37,925 nt of DNA from Rozella allomycis CSF55 (lineage: Eukaryota). Below, in pieces: positions 5,922 to 37,925 of this stretch. The notes under the pieces are model-generated. The model was not told the origin of the DNA, made no database searches, and worked only from the letters and a program-made list of their open reading frames with translations. The DNA lies in NCBI GenBank assembly GCA_000442015.1, contig KE561025.1, forward strand, positions 1 to 37,925. Reading direction: 5' to 3'. How positions within the stretch are numbered: the stretch's first letter is position 1; the number at the start of each line of letters is the position of its first letter. The translations under genes were made by a program, and so were the position numbers.

Positions 5922-6605
5922 TTAAAAAAACGAAGAAGCTACTGAGACAGCTAGTACCATTGTTAATCCCACAAACATTCTACTGGCGTCACTACTTTGT
6001 TTTACATCTCCCACTGAGTCACTGTAATCAGCTGGAGTATTTTCTTCAGTTCCTGCAGTTGTCGTGGAGTTACTGTTGGCAGCATAGTTCGTATCATCCA
6101 TATTTGTGTGTTCAGGCTCGCTTCCAGTCTCAGATTTCGTAGTGCCAGTAGATTCATACAAGTCAGTTTGGCTTGACTCACCAGCATCATTTTGTTCAGA
6201 GTCATGTTGGGCTGACTCGTCTCCTACTTCGGCACCTGTTTCCTTTCCAGTTTCATCCTTGGCGCCAGTGTCCTTTTCCGTTTCATACTGGGCTGAACCA
6301 GTATCATCTTGGCCTTCGTCTTGTTTTGATTCGTTTTGAGCAGAATCAGGTGCATTTTCGTTCTGCGCGGAATCGTTTTCATGATCTTGATCGTATTGTT
6401 TAGCGTCCTTTGCATCGTCACAGTCTTCCTTCTTTCCCCCCTTGTGTCTATAACGATTACGGTTACCACGGTGGGCCTTGACGTATTTATTTACAATGCC
6501 TTTAACTTCAGTGGGTAGCTCTACTGCTTTATCATATGTTGGAGCTGCAGCAGTTGAAGTGGTTGCCATAGCGATAACGGCGAGGGAAAGTACAGACAAA
6601 CGCAT
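5922..6605 (-). CDS. Secreted, probably GPI-anchored acidic low-complexity surface protein, 227 aa
   Basis: N-terminal signal peptide MRLSVLSLAVIAMATTSTAA, D/E/T/S-rich body with SAQxE repeats, and a C-terminal SSDA followed by a hydrophobic tail. Confidence 0.8.
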   Translation of the reverse strand: MRLSVLSLAVIAMATTSTAAAPTYDKAVELPTEVKGIVNKYVKAHRGNRNRYRHKGGKKEDCDDAKDAKQYDQDHENDSAQNENAPDSAQNESKQDEGQDDTGSAQYETEKDTGAKDETGKETGAEVGDESAQHDSEQNDAGESSQTDLYESTGTTKSETGSEPEHTNMDDTNYAANSNSTTTAGTEENTPADYSDSVGDVKQSSDASRMFVGLTMVLAVSVASSFF

Positions 6606-6821
6606 GTTTGATATTATAGGAGTTCAAACCACCAGCTATATAGCTTTTAAGGGGTTCGTAATTATTGGTTACGTTTCAAATTATTGCAACATGTTTGCTA
6701 AAAATAAATTTATTGGGTTATTTTTGTGCCTCCAAACACTAATTTATTCATGGATCAATCAAAATAACGTATGTTCGACATGTAAAACGGTCTGAAAGGT
6801 TCAATGATCGTTGACGAGGCG

Positions 6822-9157: not shown

Positions 9158-11394
9158 TTATTTATACATAGCTTCTTCTAACGTGAGAAATCCTTCGCCT
9201 TTGCACATATTACTCATGGATTCATCTGAACGATCTAACAATCTTCTTAATTCTTCTTCACTTAACACTTGGCGAATATCTCTGTCGCCCTTTTGAATCA
9301 CCAATTTTTCGTTATCTTCAGCAGCCAATATCTGCGCCAATTCACCTAAAGAAGTTTGTTTTGGTCGAAATAGATGATCTCCTTTGAATCTCCCAGATTC
9401 TATCACAACCTTTTCCAACTTTCTTTTTGAACTTGCTGTTTCAATTATGTGGTGCTCAATTGATCTTGCAATGGCAAACCGAAATACTAGTACAGGTTTA
9501 GTTTGACCTATTCTATGCGCTCTATCTTGGGCCTGTAAATCCATTTGAGGATTCCAATCCGAATCGAAAATAATGACTGTATCTGCGCTTGTTAAATTAA
9601 TCCCTAACCCACCTGACCTTGTACTTAATAAGAAAATGCGTTTTGAAGAATCCGGATTATTAAACTCATTTATCTATTTTTTGATTATTTAAAGATTACC
9701 TCAGATTGCCTTTCCTTTTGACTAATTGTGCCATCAATCCTACAAAAATCGAAATTTCGCAAGTTGCAAAATTCTTCCAACAAGTCTAGCATTTTTGTCA
9801 TTTGGGAGAAAATTAGGACTTTATGGCCTTCTTGTTTAAATAACTCTTTCAGAATTTGGTCTAATAGAAGCATTTTCCCAGATGACATCACCAATCGTTC
9901 ATCAATGACTACTTCACCGTTTTCATCTTCAGGAATATCAAACAAATAAGGATGATCACATATTTTACGCAATTGAACGATTCTGTTTTGAAGCTTTAAG
10001 TTTTTAACTTCTAAAAGTGACGATAAAGGATTTCTTTTACTCTTGTCTAAAATCGGTTCATTTTCTTTGGATTCATCATCAGAAATAATTAAATGTTGCT
10101 GATTTTGGAAATATTCAAAATGAAGAAAACATATTTTTTTTACCTACATGAGACATTCTTCCTCTCTTTCGCCTCTTGTTTGGCTTGGCCTCTGAATCAT
10201 TGTCTCCAAAGTAGAGTTCTATGTCTAAAATATCATTTTCTGGTTTATCTCTTTCAGATTGAATCAATTCTCTCAAATCTTTATTCAAAATTGCATCATA
10301 ATATTCCTTTTGCTTCATTGTCATTGGGGCCAAAACTAAATATTCTTTCTTCTTTGGCATTTCTACCTCAACTTTAAAAATTTCTAAAATTTTGAATTTA
10401 CCATCAGATTTTAGGCGCCTCAGAAGAAATGGCTTTAAAACGGAATGAAGTTTGGAAACAATTGAATTTTCTTCCTCTTGAGAAATAATTTCTTCGTTTT
10501 CTTTATTTTCAAAATCAAACCTATAAAATACCAAAAGATAGAAATACCAAGACTGAAAAGATTGCAAATCATTGAAAACATCAGGCAACAAAAAGTTTAA
10601 CAAACTCCAAAGTTCTGACAAGTTATTTTGAAGTGGGGTTCCAGTAATTAACAAACGGTTATCAGAGTTTAGAGACTTCAATTCTCGAAACAATTTACAT
10701 TTATAATTCTTTAATCTGTGCCCTTCATCCACCACGAGATATTTCCAGACAGTTTTTTGCAAATATTTTCTATCATTCATTGCTATATCATATGACGTTA
10801 TAACCACTGGACAAGCCTTTTTCTTTTTCTCAAATCGTTTTCTTAGTTGGTTTCTTTCTCCTATATCTCCATGATAAACACATGTTGGAATAGTTGGTGC
10901 AAATCTGATTTAAACATATTGATTTTCTTACTTTTTAAATTCAGCTTCCCAATTGGCTATTGTTGATAATGGTGCAACTATTAAAAACGGACTTTAAAAT
11001 ATAACGATTAGTTTTTACCCTTTGACACCCTTTTCCCATAGGTATGCAATTAAAGAAATTGTTTGAATAGTTTTCCCAAGTCCCTTTAAACTTGATAAGA
11101 GTATTTTACCATCTCATCCGCAAGAATTCCATTTAATGCATTTTCCCACAATGAAATTAACCATTGCACACCCTTTATTTGATAATCTCTCAAAGTTCCT
11201 GCGAAAATACTGGGCTGTGAAAATTCTTCTCTTTCTTTAGAATCACTGCCGTCGGTATTCTATGCATATATGAAAAAAGATATGATAACCTTTTCTAAAA
11301 TGTCAGCTAAGAATTTAGAATATATCGAAGAACGTTCAATAACTACATTTAATGTCTCAAGCTTGCTCTTTTCATTTTCGCCGTCGACTGACAT
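9158..11394 (-). CDS. HELLS: SNF2-family chromatin remodeller HELLS/LSH/DDM1/IRC5 (9 exons)
   Basis: N-terminal [59 protein letters not shown] and [17 protein letters not shown] motifs. Confidence 0.92.
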
Positions 11395-15097: not shown

Positions 15098-15730
15098 TTA
15101 GTATCCATATTGAGAAAGTTCTGATTGAACGTTTGAAATTTCTGCTTGCTTGTTGACAGCAGCCTTCTTCTTCAAAGCAAGAAGAGCCTTCTTGCGTTCG
15201 TAGAATGCCTTGGATTTTGTCTTTCTCTTTTCTTCCAAAGTCTTGACAACTTCTTGGTATTTCCATCCATATTCTTGTGAGAGTCTAGAGAGAACACAGA
15301 ATTTGCGACCAGGCTTCAAACGGAGAACACGGAGAGCATCTGGGACAACAACTCTCTTGACTTTATCATATGGGGATGGAACTCCTTCAAATACTTTCAT
15401 ACGTTCCAAAGCAGCTGCTCCACGAGCAGTCTTGTGTGGAATCATACCGCGAACAACTCTCCAGAATATTCTGCTTGGTGCGCGGAAGTGAAATGGACCA
15501 CGGGATGGATTTACAACGCAACGTTTTCTAACAAATTCTGCATACTTTAATTTGTTGCGGAAAAAGGATCCAGAAATGTTGATTTCTTCACAACGAACAA
15601 CAACAACTTTTTGACCTTTCAAAAGTTGTTTGGCAACAATAGATGCAAGACGTCCAAGCAAATGGCCTTTGCCGTCAATAATAACAGTCTCGTTAAATTA
15701 CTACACTCTATTTACCTTTTCAAAAGTCAT
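15098..15730 (-). CDS. RPL16: 60S ribosomal protein uL13 (L16/L13a)
   Basis: Spliced [21 protein letters not shown] and [12 protein letters not shown]. One 27-nt intron ending GAG. Confidence 0.98.
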
Positions 15731-31593: not shown

Positions 31594-34500
31594 ATGAGCA
31601 ACTTGACCTTAAAAATCAACTACCCTGAATCCAACATAACCAAAGCCCTCCAAGTACTACACTTGAAGTAAATTCACACAGTTTCCATCTGATTATTTTG
31701 TCAACGATTGCATCAAGGAGATCAAGGAGAAATTCAACGAAACCGATCTGAGCAATGATTACGGACTATACTGTGTTGGCCAGAAGAAATGGCTTGTAAA
31801 CAACAGGACACTAGCGTTTTATGATTTGAAAAATGGTGATATTTTAGAGTTTAAAAAGAAGCACCGGCCGATGCGCGTCAAGATGCTTGACAGCACACTC
31901 AAGACTGTATTGATTGATGAATCCTGCACTGTTAGCGAGCTTGTAAAGATTGTATGCAACAAGATTGGTAATCGCGTATAATTGGTTGTGTCTAGGGATA
32001 ACAGCATTTGAAGAATACTCATTCTGTGTTGAACTATCTAACGACGAAAGATCGACGCGCCAGAAGCACGAAAAATACGAGAGAAAAGAATACAGTAAAA
32101 AGGTATTTACGATTTGACAGCTAAATGGCTGAGCCCTGAAAAGACGCTTCGCGAGCAGCTGGTGCAAGATGCGGATGTGATAATCCTCAAGCGCAAGTTT
32201 TTCTTTTCTGACCAGAACATTGACCGGAACGATCCTATCCAGCTGAACTTGCTGTTTGTGCAATCCAAGGAGAGTGTGATTTCTGGCGAGTACCCATGTA
32301 GCGAGGAGGAGGCTGTGCAATTGGCGGCGTTGCAGGTGCAGGCAGTGTTTGGCAACTATGATGGTGATAAATGCAAGCCTGGGTTTCTCGAGTACGCATG
32401 ATGGTTGTTTCTTTCTAGGTTGAAGGACTATTTGCCCGAGGTGTATCGCCGAAAAGAGGTTGAAAAGAAGATTTATGGCGAGTATAAAAAGATATGCGGG
32501 ATGTCCGAGCTGAATGCAAAGTACCGGTATGTGCAGCAGTGCCGGTTGCTGCGAACGTATGGGGTGACGTTTTTCCAGGTCAAGGAGAAGCTGGCGAAGA
32601 AGACAAAGTTTACGCCTGCGTTGATGGGGGTTACAAAGGAGAATATACTGAGGGTTGATATCGAGAGCCGGGAGATATTGCAGGTGTGGCCGTTGACTAG
32701 TTTGAAAAGATGGGCTGCGACGCCTACGAGGTAAGAGATGGGATTTGTGTGGATTGTAGTTTTACGTTGGATTTTGGGGACTATGATGCGTGTTACCAGG
32801 TGGAGACACATGATGGGGAGGATATTTCACAGTTGATTGGGGGATATATTGATATGATTATTAGAAAGAAGAGGGAGAATGATAAGACTGGGGAGCTTGA
32901 AGGAGAGGAAATGGCAATGTATGAAGAGACGATAGAGATTGCGCAACCGTCTAGAGCTACGAATAACAATAGTTCGAGTGTGAAGAGACGAGCGGATGAA
33001 AAGGATGTTGCTGGAATTGCAAGTTTAGAAAATAGTGAAATGAAGTATTCGTCTTTGTCGATTTCAAAGGCTAAGCATAATTTGAAGTTTGTGAGTAATG
33101 AAGAAGAAAATAAGGGAATGGTTGAAGGAATTAATAAACAAGCATTGCAGTTGTTTATAGAGGATCAAATTAAGAGATGTGAAGAAGAGGAAGAAAATCT
33201 TTTAAAATTAGTTGATGAGGATATTTCTGAATTTGTGACTGAAGAATGGAAAGAGAGTGTGTATAAACTAAAGATGCATGAACTGGAGTATCGAATAAGC
33301 AATCAAATTGAATCAGTTTGTGGAATTTTAAATGAACTGAATCTAATGGAGCCGAATTATGAGACATTGAAGAATCAGATAGAGAGTATTTGTGATGAAT
33401 CATTGTTTAAGAGTATTGAAGCCAAAGTTGGTGTTGAAAAAGAATTTAGCCAAACTTTTGGTAATCTTTTAAATAGCACGAAAATATTTTTGAAAGAGAT
33501 TGAAGAGAATTTGAATGGAAAAAGTAATGGAGAGCAATTAAGGTTGGTGGCTGATGAGATTGGAGGGTTGAGTAGAGAATTAATATTAAAGAGAGAAGAG
33601 GAAATAGAATTTGGAGCGATTAATGAGATGATGGAGATGTTTGATAAAAGTTGTGAAAGGATGGAGAATAAAACGCCTGATTCTGGTAGAAAGGCAGAGA
33701 TTAAAGGAATAGCTAGTTTGTTGAAAGAGAGTGTTGAGAATTTTAAAACAATTTTGAATGTTTCAAGGGGATTTAATGAAAAGGAAGGAATTAAGAAGAG
33801 AGTTGAAGAGGGAATTGTTTTAGTTAACGATGGGATTGATTGTTGTTTGGAGAGGAATGTGATGAATAAAGAAACTTCAAATAGTTTAACAAGGGTCATA
33901 AATGATTTAACTTTAACAGAATCTACTAGTGAATCTATTGGTGAATCAAAGAAAGCATTAAAGAGAGGATCTAATGTTGAAGATGAAAATGAGAAAAGAT
34001 TGAAAATAAAATTGAATGAAATTTATGCATTGAGTAATCAAATTGGCACTTCAAATGATAAGAACTTTATCTACTTGTTGAAAGAGAAAACAATAAACTT
34101 TTCCAATGAATTGAAAGCATTTGGAATTGAAAAGGATGTATTTGAAAGAAACAGAATAAACTTTGTTTGTAAAAAGATTAATGAATTAATTGAAGAAATT
34201 GATGAAAAAGATTTTAGTAAATTTCAGAAACAATTTTCAAATTTGTTAATTTTTAATAAAGAAAAAGATTTGGTAAATTTGGTTGAAAAAATGATTGAAA
34301 ATATTCAAATTAATAAAAGAGATTTGAATGATTTTGAAAAAGTTTGTTTAATTAAAATGATAGAGTATGTTAAAGATGAAAATGTTGATGGGATTTTAAA
34401 AGAAAAGAATAATTTTATTGAAAATTTTAAAGATGAAAAAGATTTGAATAAAGATTTGAAATTGTTTGAAGAAATTTGTGAATTGATTGAGAATAATCAA

Positions 34501-37500
34501 AGTTTAGAATTAATTTTAGAAAACATTAAAAGTTTAGCAGAAAATAATAAATTGTTAAAGGGAGAGAGTAAATCGTTAAAGGGAGATAGTAAATCTTTAA
34601 ATAAAATAATTCTGAATCTTTGGAATTCACTCAACAATGCATCATCCACTATTTCCACTTCTACATCCACTATTGCTACTTCTACATCTGCTATCAATCC
34701 TTCAATGTCTAATTCTTCTTCTCCATCAGAAATATTTAATAGTTTGGTTCTGTTAAATCAAATAAAACCAAATAAAGAATTAAATATTTCAGTTTTAAAA
34801 TTTGTTAAACAAGGGGTATTTGAAAAAGAAAAGATTGAAAATATTCTTTTAAATTTAGCAGAAAAGAATTCAGAGAATTTAGTAGTTGACCAAGTTTTAA
34901 ATGAAATCGATGCTTTGAATGTAGATTTAAACATTCAAGGGAATGAACAAGTAAATGAAAAGAATAAATTGTCAACGTTGATTTTAAAATTTAATTATTC
35001 ATTAGAAAATTTCAAAGAAGAATTCATCAATGTTTCCAAGGCATCAACTAAGGCATCAAATGAGCAATCAACTTCTAATTTTACTACTAATTCAACTGAA
35101 CAATCGAATGATTTGAATGCATTGAGTTTAAGCGCTTCTTCTCTTGTAAACAATTTAATAAATTTAAACAACATAAATTTAAATGATTCTAATTATAAAA
35201 ATAGATTGATTAAATTGAAAGATAAATTGTTGATAGAATTTACAGATCTGAATAACCCTTTAAAACAAAAATCAAATCTAAATTTAGATTATGAAATTTC
35301 AGAAATTGTTAAATTTTCTAATTCAAATGAAATTGATTCTTGTTTAATAAAGAATGAAAAATTATTAAAAGAAACTTTGAATAATAATATTGCCACTATG
35401 AATAAATCATTTAAAGATCTATTAAATGAGATTATTAATCAAATACAGACTTTAAGTGAGACTGGAGTTGAAACCGCAATTGAAACTAGTACTAATTCAA
35501 CTATTACTATTTCTTGGCTTTCAAATGGTTTGTATTTCTTGAATGAAAATGTTAAAAATTTGGTTTACTTGATTGGAGTTTCAGATAAAGATTCAATTAA
35601 AGCCACAATAGATCCAAATTTAATAAATTTGAATGAAAATATTTTATTTTTGAAAAGATTAAATTTCTATGAAAATCCATTTAATAAAATTAAAGAAATA
35701 GCAAAACCAATCTCATCTATTTGTGAATTTCTCAAATTAGATTTAAAGAATAAGAATTATTTAAAATCAATTTCAACTACAACATCCAATTTGATTAAAA
35801 GGGTTATGAGTGATTCTTCAAATTCTTCAAATAAACAAATTTCATTACAGACAAAATCTCTTTATGAATTTCTATTAAATGAATTGGAAGATTTGAAATT
35901 AAATTTAAAAGAAAATTCAACCAAAGCAATTTTTAGTCCAAATTCAATTTTAAAGCAACAATCTTTAATTGATCATTTTCAGTCTATTATAATTTCTTTT
36001 AATGATTTATTAAACAATCAAAGGAAGGGATTAAATGAAATTAATGTTTCAGATCTTTTAGTTTTATTAAATGATTTGCCAAATGTTATTATTTCTTCTA
36101 TCAATAAAGAATATTCTGATTCTATTTCAATCATCAATCAAAGTTCCAATAGAAACAATGAAAGGAACATTGAAACTAGTTCCAATAAAAGTACTAATAG
36201 AAGTAGCAATGGAAGTTCAAATAGAAGTAGTAATAGAAACTCTATCAATTCTTCTTTCAAGTCCAACAATTTAAACACTTCAACTCTTTGTTCACTAATA
36301 CATGAAATTGATCCATCAAATAATATTTCATTTCTTTCCATTGCTCAACCTTTGACTGAACTAATTAATTCAAATTCTAATGATGTTGTAAATTCTAATG
36401 ATGTTTTAAATAATTCATTGTCTTTTCTTAATGAATGGTATCAATTTCTATTAAATCCAACATTTGATATTTCTCAATTCAATCAATCAAGAGAATTATT
36501 AATAAATTCAATTCAATCTATTCAATCTGAATTAAATAACATGCAAAATGTCGATATTATTCAATTAATCAACAATGCAGACTCTCTCAATTCTTCGCGT
36601 GATACTCAATTTACGCTTGATAAAGTTGAAGATTTAATTAATAAATTCTCTCAATTGTTTACTTGTGAGAATCAAACAGCTCAACTCTCTTCCATTAAAT
36701 CTTCTTACATTAATCTATTCAACGCTTCAAATTCAAATACAAAATTATCTGAAATTGTTAAAGAAATTGGTTATTCTTTATCAAGTGTTATGAATTCATT
36801 AAAAGATAAAAGAAAATTATCAAAATTAGTTTCTGAAATTTCACAAAATTTAGTTGAATTAAAAACTTCAATTATTGAATCTGAAAGCGATCCAACTAGA
36901 ATAAATAATCAAAATAATCAAAATGAAAATGGTAAATTTATTTGTTTATTGTAAGTAGAATTAATTGATGAATTATCCAACGCCATTTTAGATCTTGAAA
37001 CGTTACTAGTTTTTGCCAAAGCAAATCAATTGCAAGTTTTAAACACAAATTTTGATTCTTCTCATTTAATTGAAGAAATTCAAATAAAATCTGAAATTAT
37101 TTTTGAAAATTTAAATTCAAATCTTTCTGAAGATTCATTAGTGAAAATTATTCAAACTTCAATTGAATTGAAAAATATTTTTAAAAAATTTGTTTTAAAT
37201 CTTCAAAATCAAAAATTTCAAATTCAATCTTTAAATCTATTTTTAATCTTTTTAAAATCTTTAGACTCTTCAATAGAATCCTCTTCTGCTCATCTTGGAG
37301 AATTTATTCAATTTTTGCAATTGAAATTAAATGAATCAGAAAATTCGATTGAAAATTTATTGTTTGAAATTCAAAATGAAATACAAAATGGCTTAAATTT
37401 TCTCTTTTCAGATTCAATTCTAGATGGATTTTGTACCCCTGAAGATTTATGCAAAAAAGCTAAAATTTTCACTTCAATTTCTGCCAATCTAATAAATTTA

Positions 37501-37925
37501 AACAAAAACGAATCTGAAATTTATTCTCTTCTCTCTTTGGCCAAAACTGAAATTAAAGATTTCCTAAATCTATCAAAATTAATCTCTCAAATCATTCCTC
37601 TAAACGATTCTCTCAATTTTAAAAATGAAATTTCAAATTGTTTAAATTTATTCATTTCTTTAATCCAAAATTTAAATTCTAAAAACAAATTCAATATAGC
37701 TAAAGAATTGGTCTCTTCAATAAATCAAATCATTTCATTCGCTTCTCTAATTTCAGATCATCAAAACCCTCAACTAATAGCCGAACAAGAATTACTAGCA
37801 GCCGCTGCTTCAATTGAACTCGCTGCAAAGAAACTGGCAAGTCTAGCGCCAAAAATTAACATTCCAATCGAAGAAATTCAATCTCTAGAATTCGATCAGC
37901 AAATATTCCATGCCGCCAATTCCAT
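31594..37925 (+). CDS. TLN: Talin (F0-F3 FERM head, divergent rod, start of I/LWEQ domain); runs off the window
   Basis: KHRPMRVKMLD..LKTVLIDES, LKRKFFFSDQNIDRNDPIQLNLLFVQ, LRTYGVTFF.VKEK, KRWAA...FTLDFGDY, ISQLIGGYIDMI, ILDLETLLVFA and IAEQELLAAAASIELAAKKL...FDQQI. Six introns of 26-29 nt. Confidence 0.95.

What the first reader, a model, noticed from the sequence alone, without database searches (positions are those of the whole stretch)
31594..37925. Full-architecture talin in a fungal-lineage genome, with the integrin-binding F3 motif intact
Seen: F0-F3 head including KRWAATPTSFTLDFGDY (the R-W-A strand that binds integrin NPxY tails in animal talin), a long rod and the start of the actin-binding I/LWEQ domain. 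Established: Dikarya lack talin and fungi lack integrins, while some zoosporic fungi and Amoebozoa keep talin. Inference: an integrin-independent adhesion or phagocytosis system binding an unknown NPxY/F-tailed receptor, possibly for crawling or host-cytoplasm uptake.
Basis: partly seen in the sequence, partly recalled or inferred. Interest (0 to 1): 0.7.

Follow-up and report, generated by a model that had tools for sequence, protein, structure and literature searches.

The report
Rozella talin gene, divergent rod
This is the talin gene of the early-branching fungal parasite Rozella allomycis: its membrane-binding head is well conserved and its rod is unusually degenerate, which makes it an expected member of a family already known from zoosporic fungi that lack integrins.

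Summary
Window 31594-37925 (+) encodes a 7-exon talin gene. It gives 2055 codons with no stop and is cut off by the contig end.

- **Head:** F0-F1-F2-F3 is clear (Pfam; talin-1/2 structures at E 1e-31; Foldseek E 4e-34). KRWAATPT|SFTLDFGDY is real once a 29-nt intron is spliced out.
- **C-terminus:** the last 321 residues match talin-1 2171-2351, the start of the I/LWEQ actin-binding domain. About 190 residues are missing.
- **Organism:** Rozella allomycis, so "fungal lineage" is right.
- **Inheritance:** a head tree puts it at the base of Holomycota, outside its host's lineage.

Novelty is low. At least 33 zoosporic-fungal or aphelid talins are already deposited, 15 of them named Talin-1. Talin without integrin in basal fungi is in print (PMC5042518; bioRxiv 10.1101/2020.06.12.142943). 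The R-W strand is invariant in all 28 aligned talins.

What is unusual:
- The rod has no Pfam match. It is 10-28% identical to the talin consensus, against 17-57% for seven comparison talins.
- GC3 runs from 0.52-0.68 in the head to 0.14-0.20 in the rod, against 0.27-0.35 elsewhere on the contig.

The receptor and the function are untested.

The parts
31594..31653 (+). Exon 1: start codon and first strand of F0 (MSNLTLKINYPESNITKALQ)
   Evidence: Same N-terminus as deposited model P0124. Aligns to talin HMM positions 1-20.
31654..31681 (+). Intron 1, 28 nt, GT..AG
   Evidence: The splice is shared with P0124.
31682..31967 (+). Exon 2: rest of F0 and start of F1
   Evidence: Pfam FERM_f0 E 2.1e-19, RA_2 E 4.6e-6.
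31968..31995 (+). Intron 2, 28 nt
   Evidence: Shared with P0001 and P0124.
31996..32094 (+). Exon 3: F1 with its basic loop
   Evidence: The AF2 model has pLDDT <50 at P0001 residues 138-150, which is the loop.
32095..32120 (+). Intron 3, 26 nt
32121..32391 (+). Exon 4: end of F1 and first half of F2
   Evidence: Pfam FERM_M E 3.4e-13.
32392..32418 (+). Intron 4, 27 nt, in frame with a TGA
32419..32730 (+). Exon 5: second half of F2 and most of F3, ending ...LKRWAATPT
   Evidence: Pfam FERM_M and IRS-type PTB. Talin-2 and talin-1 F2F3 structures at E 1.5e-31 to 4.4e-29.
32731..32759 (+). Intron 5, 29 nt, splitting the F3 motif
32760..32886 (+). Start of exon 6: end of F3 (SFTLDFGDY...GGYIDMIIRKK)
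   Evidence: Pfam IRS E 2.8e-5. Talin HMM alignment.
32887..33111 (+). Head-rod linker, predicted disordered
   Evidence: AF2 with alignment: pLDDT about 28 at P0001 residues 388-462.
33112..33588 (+). First rod bundle(s), still recognisable as talin
   Evidence: Inside talin-HMM domain 1 (model 1-619 to HMM 1-639, E 1.5e-216). AF2 block means mostly 51-90, with one weak block of 45.
33589..36931 (+). Divergent, AT-rich, Asn/Ser/Ile/Lys-rich middle rod (rest of exon 6)
   Evidence: No Pfam hit. 10-28% identity to the talin consensus. Weak colinear HMM hits. Almost all helical in AF2, at low confidence. Frame kept open.
36932..36958 (+). Intron 6, 27 nt, holds the only in-frame stop
   Evidence: The same splice is in P0124 and P0126.
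36959..37254 (+). Exon 7, first part: late rod
   Evidence: Weak HMM hit, model 1735-1806 to HMM 1961-2037.
37255..37925 (+). Exon 7, rest: conserved last rod bundles and first helix of the I/LWEQ (THATCH) actin-binding domain, cut by the contig end
   Evidence: HMM domain 5, E 4.3e-28. Talin-1 2171-2351 at E 9.6e-8 and 2jsw. 34 hits at E<=1e-3 in the representative library; the rows whose names I have are talins.

Best explanation
This is the vertically inherited talin orthologue of Rozella allomycis.

**Shown.**
- It has a talin-type FERM head (F0-F1-F2-F3).
- It has a disordered linker and a long rod that is predicted to be all helical.
- It has the beginning of the C-terminal I/LWEQ/THATCH actin-binding domain.
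- It sits on an ordinary nuclear contig among housekeeping genes.

**Inferred from what talin does in animals and Dictyostelium.**
- The head binds acidic membrane lipid and the short cytoplasmic tail of one or more adhesion receptors that are not integrins. It would do so through the R-W strand of F3.
- The C-terminus binds F-actin.
- The rod carries force between the two.
- In Rozella this would act in the wall-less stages: the zoospore on the host surface and the naked protoplast that engulfs host cytoplasm.

**The Rozella-specific twist.** Selection has kept the head, the first rod bundle and the last rod bundles. The middle rod has drifted towards AT-rich, low-complexity sequence while its reading frame and roughly its length were kept. 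It therefore probably serves mainly as a helical spacer or spring and not as a conserved docking platform.
For: **Identity as talin.**
- Pfam FERM_f0, RA_2, FERM_M and IRS on the head exons.
- PDB sequence hits are talin-2/talin-1 at E 1e-31, with kindlins only at 1e-7.
- The AF2 model built with an alignment has head pLDDT block means mostly 73-93, with dips at the F1 loop and two shorter stretches.
- Its best Foldseek hits are talin heads (E 4e-34, 42-45% identity). Full-length talin cryo-EM models align over about 850-900 columns (E 1e-22 to 1e-20).
- My HMM of 31 talins scores 785 bits, with colinear domains.
- hhalign aligns 1924 columns.
- The C-terminal 321 residues hit talin-1 2171-2351 and 2jsw, and named talins at colinear positions.

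**Organism and native status.**
- P0001 is named Rozella allomycis CSF55 and is 100% identical on the F2-F3 exon.
- P0124 lies on a contig of 37925 nt.
- The neighbours are PP2A-A, uL13, PFK, Rad52, an SNF2 helicase, adaptin and similar.
- The 26-27 nt introns in uL13 and the SNF2 gene match the 26-29 nt talin introns.

**Vertical descent.** In the careful tree of 36 heads:
- The Holozoa/Holomycota split has 100/100 support.
- Rozella pairs with an unnamed 216-aa talin fragment (97/88).
- It lies outside the Blastocladiomycota clade of its host's lineage (100/100).

**Selection.**
- 1 stop in 1721 codons against 60-258 in the other frames.
- Head 55-61% identical to the consensus, rod 10-28%.

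**Key residues.**
- The equivalents of talin-1 K316, K324, K357, R358 and W359 are kept, and L325 is F. I read this by hand from the alignment, with a numbering offset of 255.
- W359A blocks binding to the membrane-distal integrin site, and L325R blocks the membrane-proximal site (PMC4516797 passages).
- The roles of the lysines are recalled, not read in a paper here.
Against: - No receptor, vinculin, paxillin or kindlin could be looked for, so the mechanism rests on analogy.
- About 190 C-terminal residues, which hold the core of the actin-binding domain and the dimerisation helix, are not on the contig. They were not found elsewhere.
- The middle rod matches no Pfam rod family. Its only fold prediction is of low confidence: pLDDT 38 from a single sequence.
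- The ESM Atlas look-alikes of the rod are talin-rod clusters, but at scores of 0.76-0.77. The tool rates that as a lead only.
- The Rozella head sits on a long branch (1.06 against a median of 0.36), so its exact position in the tree is soft.
- The GC3 anomaly of the gene is unexplained.
- Talin is also kept by osmotrophic chytrids, so keeping it says nothing specific about phagotrophy.
Confidence: 0.8

Rival explanations
1. Reduced talin. Only the head, and perhaps the C-terminal actin-binding end, still works. The rod has lost its conserved docking sites (vinculin-binding helices, second integrin-binding site, central actin-binding site) and is just a tether. The protein would then no longer build a talin-vinculin type adhesion complex.
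For: - No rod Pfam family at E<=10.
- All 33 named zoosporic-fungal or aphelid talins carry PF21896 and PF01608, and most carry PF09141, PF21692 and PF21865.
- Rod identity to the consensus is 10-28%. The seven comparison talins tabulated range 17-57% over rod blocks 501-2300, and the two Blastocladiomycota range 18-46%.
- GC3 of 0.14-0.20 and an Asn/Ser/Ile/Lys/Leu/Glu fraction of 0.62-0.73 suggest drift with the mutation bias.
Against: - The frame is kept open over about 1700 codons at 22-26% GC.
- Rod length and order are colinear with other talins.
- The first and last bundles are conserved.
- Individual binding helices are short and could survive unseen by Pfam.
Confidence: 0.3
2. The region is an assembly chimera, a contaminant, or a recent transfer (for example from the host Allomyces). 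The jump in composition between head and rod would be explained that way.
For: - Head exons have GC3 0.52-0.68 and rod GC3 0.14-0.20, while 18 other ORFs of the contig have 0.27-0.35.
- The gene sits at a contig end.
Against: - The head-rod junction is 1055/1057 identical in a second assembly's protein.
- The exon 6/7 junction is 186/188 identical in a third record.
- The composition changes gradually inside one exon, not at a breakpoint.
- The head introns are of the same 26-29 nt type as those of neighbouring genes.
- No database talin is more than 65% identical to the head exon.
- Rozella lies outside the 100/100 Blastocladiomycota clade.
Confidence: 0.03
3. A decaying pseudogene: a talin relic no longer expressed in a reduced parasite genome.
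For: - Extreme rod divergence and low-complexity inserts.
- No expression data were seen.
Against: - No stop or frameshift in 2055 codons outside the GT..AG introns.
- The chance of an open 1390-codon frame at this composition is about e^-139.
- The head is as conserved as in free-living relatives.
Confidence: 0.03
4. Another FERM or I/LWEQ protein, not talin: kindlin, a MyTH4-FERM myosin tail, or a Sla2/Hip1R-type endocytic adaptor.
For: - Kindlins also have F0 and an IRS-like F3, and they appear as weaker hits (E 4e-7; Foldseek E 1e-18).
- Sla2/Hip1R share the I/LWEQ domain.
Against: - Talin hits are 24 orders of magnitude better than kindlin hits.
- No PH, ANTH, motor or MyTH4 family was reported on the head exons.
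- A FERM head and an I/LWEQ start more than 1600 residues apart, in one protein, is the talin layout.
Confidence: 0.02

Closest known systems
Talins of zoosporic fungi and aphelids (for example Amoeboaphelidium protococcarum, Gonapodya prolifera, Allomyces javanicus, Spizellomyces, Piromyces; many named Talin-1 in GenBank)
   Same: - Same head, 49-54% identical over about 90% of the 420-residue query.
- Same order of head, linker, rod and I/LWEQ.
- Same lineage side in the tree.
- The hosts of these genes lack integrins according to PMC5042518.
   Different: - The Rozella rod has no Pfam rod family and 10-28% identity to the consensus.
- The protein up to the I/LWEQ start is about 275 residues shorter than the HMM.
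- It has strong AT drift and low-complexity inserts.
- Its C-terminus is not available.
Animal talin-1/talin-2
   Same: - Head 42-46% identical, with the same fold.
- R358/W359 equivalents kept.
- The end of the rod and the first I/LWEQ helix align to residues 2171-2351.
   Different: - No integrin partner is expected in a fungus (PMC5042518).
- L325 is F.
- Vinculin-binding sites, IBS2, and RIAM or KANK sites are not recognisable.
Dictyostelium talin A/B with SibA-type receptors
   Same: Talin working without canonical integrins, coupling a receptor with an NPxY tail to actin and transmitting force (PMC12686525 abstract and passages; PMC10846614 passages). This is the best functional analogue.
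   Different: - No Dictyostelium sequence was compared here.
- No Sib-like protein could be sought in Rozella.
Sla2/Hip1R/End4 endocytic adaptors
   Same: They share the C-terminal I/LWEQ (THATCH) actin-binding domain (PMC11476202 abstract in the listing).
   Different: They have an ANTH domain at the N-terminus. Here the N-terminus is a talin FERM head.

Membership tests
Talin | N-terminal atypical FERM head with an extra F0 lobe before F1-F2-F3 | tested here: met
   - Pfam FERM_f0, RA_2, FERM_M and IRS in that order.
- AF2 head pLDDT block means mostly 73-93, with dips at the F1 loop and two shorter stretches.
- Foldseek best hits are talin heads at E 4e-34.
Talin | F3 PTB-like lobe with the R358/W359 strand that binds NPxY tails | tested here: met
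   - KRWAAT aligns to KRWAAS of talin-2 and talin-1.
- R and W are invariant in 28 of 28 aligned talins.
- The role of W359 comes from PMC4516797.
Talin | Flexible linker between head and rod | tested here: met
   AF2 pLDDT about 28 with no secondary structure at P0001 residues 388-462. This is a prediction only.
Talin | Long rod of 4- and 5-helix bundles (13 bundles in animal talin, a number I recall) with vinculin-binding helices | tested here: inconclusive
   - About 1650 residues predicted almost wholly helical: 20 helices to model residue 1000 and 25 more to residue 1733 (low confidence).
- First bundle(s) and last bundles match the talin HMM.
- The middle gives no Pfam hit and only weak colinear HMM hits.
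- The ESM Atlas gives a lead only.
- Vinculin-binding sites were not assessed.
Talin | C-terminal I/LWEQ (THATCH) actin-binding domain with a dimerisation helix | tested here: inconclusive
   - Only the first roughly 55 residues are on the contig. They match 2jsw residues 6-58 and talin-1 up to residue 2351.
- The remainder was not found.
Kindlin | PH domain inserted in F2 and no rod | tested here: not met
   - No PH family on the head exons.
- A rod of more than 1600 residues follows.
- Kindlin hits are far weaker than talin hits.
Sla2/Hip1R | N-terminal ANTH domain plus coiled coil before the I/LWEQ domain | tested here: not met
   The N-terminus is FERM and no ANTH family was found.
Integrin-mediated adhesion complex (talin with integrin, vinculin, paxillin, the ILK-PINCH-parvin (IPP) complex) | The partner genes are present in the same genome | not testable with these tools
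   - No Rozella genome or proteome was on hand. The genome collection offered holds bacteria and archaea only.
- PMC5042518 says basal fungi lack integrin, FAK and Src, but it does not name Rozella (0 occurrences).

The most novel reading that the evidence does not exclude
In Rozella, talin has been pared down to a minimal membrane-to-actin tether.
- The receptor- and lipid-binding head and the actin-binding end stay under strong constraint.
- The rod has lost the conserved docking sites for vinculin and other adaptors. It evolves almost freely as a low-complexity helical spring.
- This stripped-down talin would serve the phagocytosis of host cytoplasm by the wall-less parasite, through a receptor unrelated to integrins.

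If true, it would be a natural experiment showing which parts of talin are indispensable.
Probability: 0.25. Interest if true: 0.45.

Novelty: new member of a known kind. Interest (0 to 1): 0.25.

Why it matters
**Why it is mostly ordinary.** It confirms that talin reaches down to the Rozella branch of the fungal lineage. That fits the published view that the talin-actin coupling machinery predates animals, survives in zoosporic fungi without integrins, and was lost in Dikarya.

**Possible uses.**
- Rozella is a genome-reduced relative of Microsporidia that still engulfs host cytoplasm. Its talin is a candidate handle on how a fungus-like cell does phagocytosis.
- The contrast between a conserved head and a nearly free-running rod shows which parts of talin selection cares about when the animal partner set is absent.

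None of this changes current understanding.

Tried and rejected
- **Pfam on the rod at E<=10** found nothing: only the tail of IRS, plus one chance-level row for a viral cysteine-rich family at E 5.3.
- **AF2 on rod residues 1000-1733 from the single sequence** gave pLDDT 38. I used only its helix pattern and did not send it to fold search.
- **Search for the missing C-terminal end of the Rozella gene.**
  - The word-indexed search of proteins of 563-2000 residues found one weak, unnamed talin-like protein.
  - The exhaustive representative search found only a 191-aa overlapping fragment, P0126.
  - The length class near 177-562 residues was not searched with the word index.
- **Kang et al. 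2021** (Curr Biol, integrin-mediated adhesive complex) could not be read. It may already list Rozella.
- **Supplements** of the papers were not opened. Figure 2 and Supplementary Text 1 of the Prostak preprint may name more species.
- **Host-derived transfer** was considered and rejected on the tree. I did not run an AU test.
- **Complex prediction** was not used, because there is no candidate partner sequence.
- **Not examined.**
  - Genome contigs was not used because it holds only prokaryotes.
  - The antisense ORFs over the gene (305 aa at 31844-32761 and 215 aa at 33375-34022) were not examined further. All homology is on the + strand.

Full report
**What is there.** The window is an AT-rich eukaryotic contig (33.7% GC, no N). 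From 31594 to the last base, the + strand carries a talin gene.

I built the model from the sequence:
- seven exons;
- six GT..AG introns of 28, 28, 26, 27, 29 and 27 nt;
- 2055 codons with no stop, still open at base 37925.

The deposited model P0124 (2015 aa) sits on a contig of exactly 37925 nt, so the window is a whole contig and the gene is cut by its end. P0124 has the same start and the same six introns. It removes three more in-frame GT..AG stretches of 36, 39 and 45 nt from exon 6. Without RNA data I cannot say which version is right.

KRWAATPT ends exon 5 and SFTLDFGDY starts exon 6.

**Organism.** The F2-F3 exon is 100% identical to RKP18357.1, 'hypothetical protein ROZALSC1DRAFT_23311 [Rozella allomycis CSF55]', which UniRef names 'FERM domain-containing protein'.

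The other genes on the contig are ordinary nuclear housekeeping genes:
- an MSS51/zf-MYND protein and an ALG9-like mannosyltransferase;
- a myotubularin and an SNF2 helicase;
- the PP2A A subunit, ribosomal uL13 and phosphofructokinase;
- Rad52, a RAI16-like protein and an adaptin.

Two of them, uL13 and the SNF2 gene, show introns of 27 and 26 nt. That is the same tiny type as in talin, so the talin gene looks native.

**Head.** Four lines of evidence agree:
- Pfam finds FERM_f0, RA_2 (F1), FERM_M (F2) and the IRS-type PTB (F3) in order.
- The F2-F3 exon hits talin-2 and talin-1 structures at E 1.5e-31 to 4e-29, and kindlins only at 4e-7.
- I folded P0001 (1121 aa) with an alignment of 27 other talins. 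Head pLDDT block means were mostly 73-93, with dips at the F1 loop (41-53) and two shorter stretches. A 75-residue linker came out disordered, and the helices up to about residue 840 had moderate confidence.
- Foldseek against the PDB returned talin head structures first (E 4e-34, 42-45% identity over about 385 columns). Full-length talin cryo-EM models aligned over about 850-900 columns (E 1e-22 to 1e-20).

For key residues I read the alignment by hand, with a numbering offset of 255:
- The equivalents of talin-1 K316, K324, K357, R358 and W359 are kept.
- L325 is F.

W359A blocks binding to the membrane-distal integrin site and L325R blocks the membrane-proximal one (PMC4516797, passages read). 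The roles of the lysines are recalled, not read. R and W are invariant in all 28 talins I aligned, most of them fungal. An intact F3 strand is therefore the rule for talins of organisms without integrins, not a peculiarity of this gene.

**Rod and C-terminus.** An HMM of 31 talins (my choice from the 120 rows listed) matches the model colinearly:

| Rozella model residues | HMM positions | E-value |
|---|---|---|
| 1-619 | 1-639 | 1.5e-216 |
| 1833-2054 | 2093-2329 | 4.3e-28 |
| in between | colinear | weak only |

Further points:
- hhalign aligns 1924 columns at 26% identity overall (the output was cut off in view).
- The last 321 residues match human talin-1 2171-2351 (E 9.6e-8) and the C-terminal actin-binding chain 2jsw at residues 6-58.
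- In the exhaustive library search there were 34 hits at E<=1e-3. The rows whose names I have are talins, matched near positions 2070-2370 of proteins about 2500 residues long.
- The HMM has 2521 positions and the window stops at 2329. About 190 residues, the core of the I/LWEQ domain and the dimerisation helix, are therefore missing. I did not find them in another record.

**How divergent the rod is.**
- No Pfam rod family matches, even at E<=10.
- By my count, all 33 named zoosporic-fungal or aphelid talins among the 120 rows carry PF21896 and PF01608. Most also carry PF09141, PF21692 and PF21865.
- In 100-column blocks, Rozella is 55-61% identical to the talin consensus in the head. In the rod it is 10-28%, rising to 33% in the last full block.
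- Over rod blocks 501-2300, the seven comparison talins tabulated range 17-57%, and the two Blastocladiomycota range 18-46%.
- The rod is rich in Asn, Ser, Ile, Lys, Leu and Glu (fraction 0.62-0.73) and has microsatellite-like inserts.
- It is still under selection for an open frame. There is one stop in 1721 codons, inside intron 6, against 60-258 in the other five frames. The chance probability for the 1390-codon stretch is about e^-139.
- Predicted secondary structure is almost entirely helical. The tertiary model of the middle rod is not reliable (pLDDT 38).
- ESM Atlas look-alikes of residues 640-1780 are talin-rod, I_LWEQ and vinculin clusters at 0.76-0.77. The tool rates that as a lead only.

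**Descent.** I built a careful maximum-likelihood tree of 36 heads. The rows were Rozella, 28 Holomycota-side rows and 7 Holozoa used as outgroup, with no amoebozoan.
- Holozoa and Holomycota separate at 100/100.
- Rozella pairs with an unnamed 216-aa 'talin' fragment (97/88).
- It branches near the base, close to the aphelid, and outside the 100/100 clade of Sorochytrium, Allomyces and Blastocladiella.
- Its terminal branch is long (1.06 against a median of 0.36), so the exact position is soft.
- There is no sign of capture from the host lineage.
- A chimera is also unlikely. Two other records confirm the head-rod junction (1055/1057 identical) and the exon 6/7 junction (186/188 identical).

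**What is known already.**
- PMC5042518 (passages read) states that basal fungal phyla, but not Dikarya, encode focal-adhesion scaffold proteins including talin. It says they lack integrin, FAK and Src, and it proposes non-integrin anchors on the Dictyostelium SibA/SadA model.
- The Prostak et al. preprint (10.1101/2020.06.12.142943, passages read) states that talin is absent from Dikarya, is conserved in most chytrids, and may serve zoospore crawling.
- PMC12686525 (abstract and passages) shows that Dictyostelium talin A transmits force without integrins.
- Searches for Rozella with talin, Rozella with vinculin, and Cryptomycota with talin found no paper on talin in Rozella: only a 2009 paper on phagocytosis, seen as a listing and not opened, and the Prostak preprint, whose main text does not name Rozella.
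- Kang et al. 2021 could not be read.

Two things are unusual. One is the split between a conserved head and a nearly unrecognisable rod. The other is the compositional gradient of the gene, which I could not explain. The receptor, the partners, expression and the C-terminal end remain open.

Noticed in passing
window 31594-37925, compared with 18 ORFs across 16-30253: The talin gene is a compositional outlier in both directions.
- GC3 is 0.52-0.68 in the head exons and 0.14-0.20 in the rod. The 18 other ORFs on the contig have 0.27-0.35.
- The fall is gradual inside exon 6.
- Third positions are G-rich and almost free of C over codons 301-720. The sign flips after about codon 1440.
- GC skew reaches +0.49 at 33001-35000.

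The cause is unknown.
   Followed up: partly
window 31654-36958; also 15686-15712 (-) and 9669-9694 (-): The spliceosomal introns are tiny: 26-29 nt in talin (six introns), about 27 nt in uL13 and 26 nt in the SNF2 helicase gene. All are GT..AG. The uL13 and SNF2 borders were read by eye.
   Followed up: partly
window 33461-33496, 34138-34176, 34217-34261: The deposited model P0124 removes three extra in-frame GT..AG stretches of 36, 39 and 45 nt from the rod exon. They contain no stop and are longer than the six obligatory introns, so they may be over-predicted introns.
   Followed up: partly
P0001 residues 1076-1121 against window model residues 1074-1275: The protein from the second (single-cell) assembly skips about 165 residues of the window's rod. 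It then matches only 24 of 37 residues before its contig ends. This could be an assembly collapse, a gene-model artefact or a real length difference in the low-complexity rod.
   Followed up: no
window 5922-6623 (-): A 233-aa ORF with a hydrophobic N-terminus, a long acidic Ser/Thr/Asp/Glu-rich middle and a hydrophobic C-terminus, with no Pfam hit. It looks like a secreted or lipid-anchored surface protein.
   Followed up: no
window 31844-32761 (-) and 33375-34022 (-): Antisense open frames of 305 and 215 aa lie over the talin gene. They are probably a by-product of the purine-rich coding strand.
   Followed up: no
P0002 (216 aa, JGI/ENA record named 'talin'): This is the closest relative of the Rozella head: 65% identity on the F2-F3 exon, and sister to Rozella in the tree at 97/88. 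It is a short fragment from an unnamed source, perhaps another member of the Rozella lineage.
   Followed up: partly
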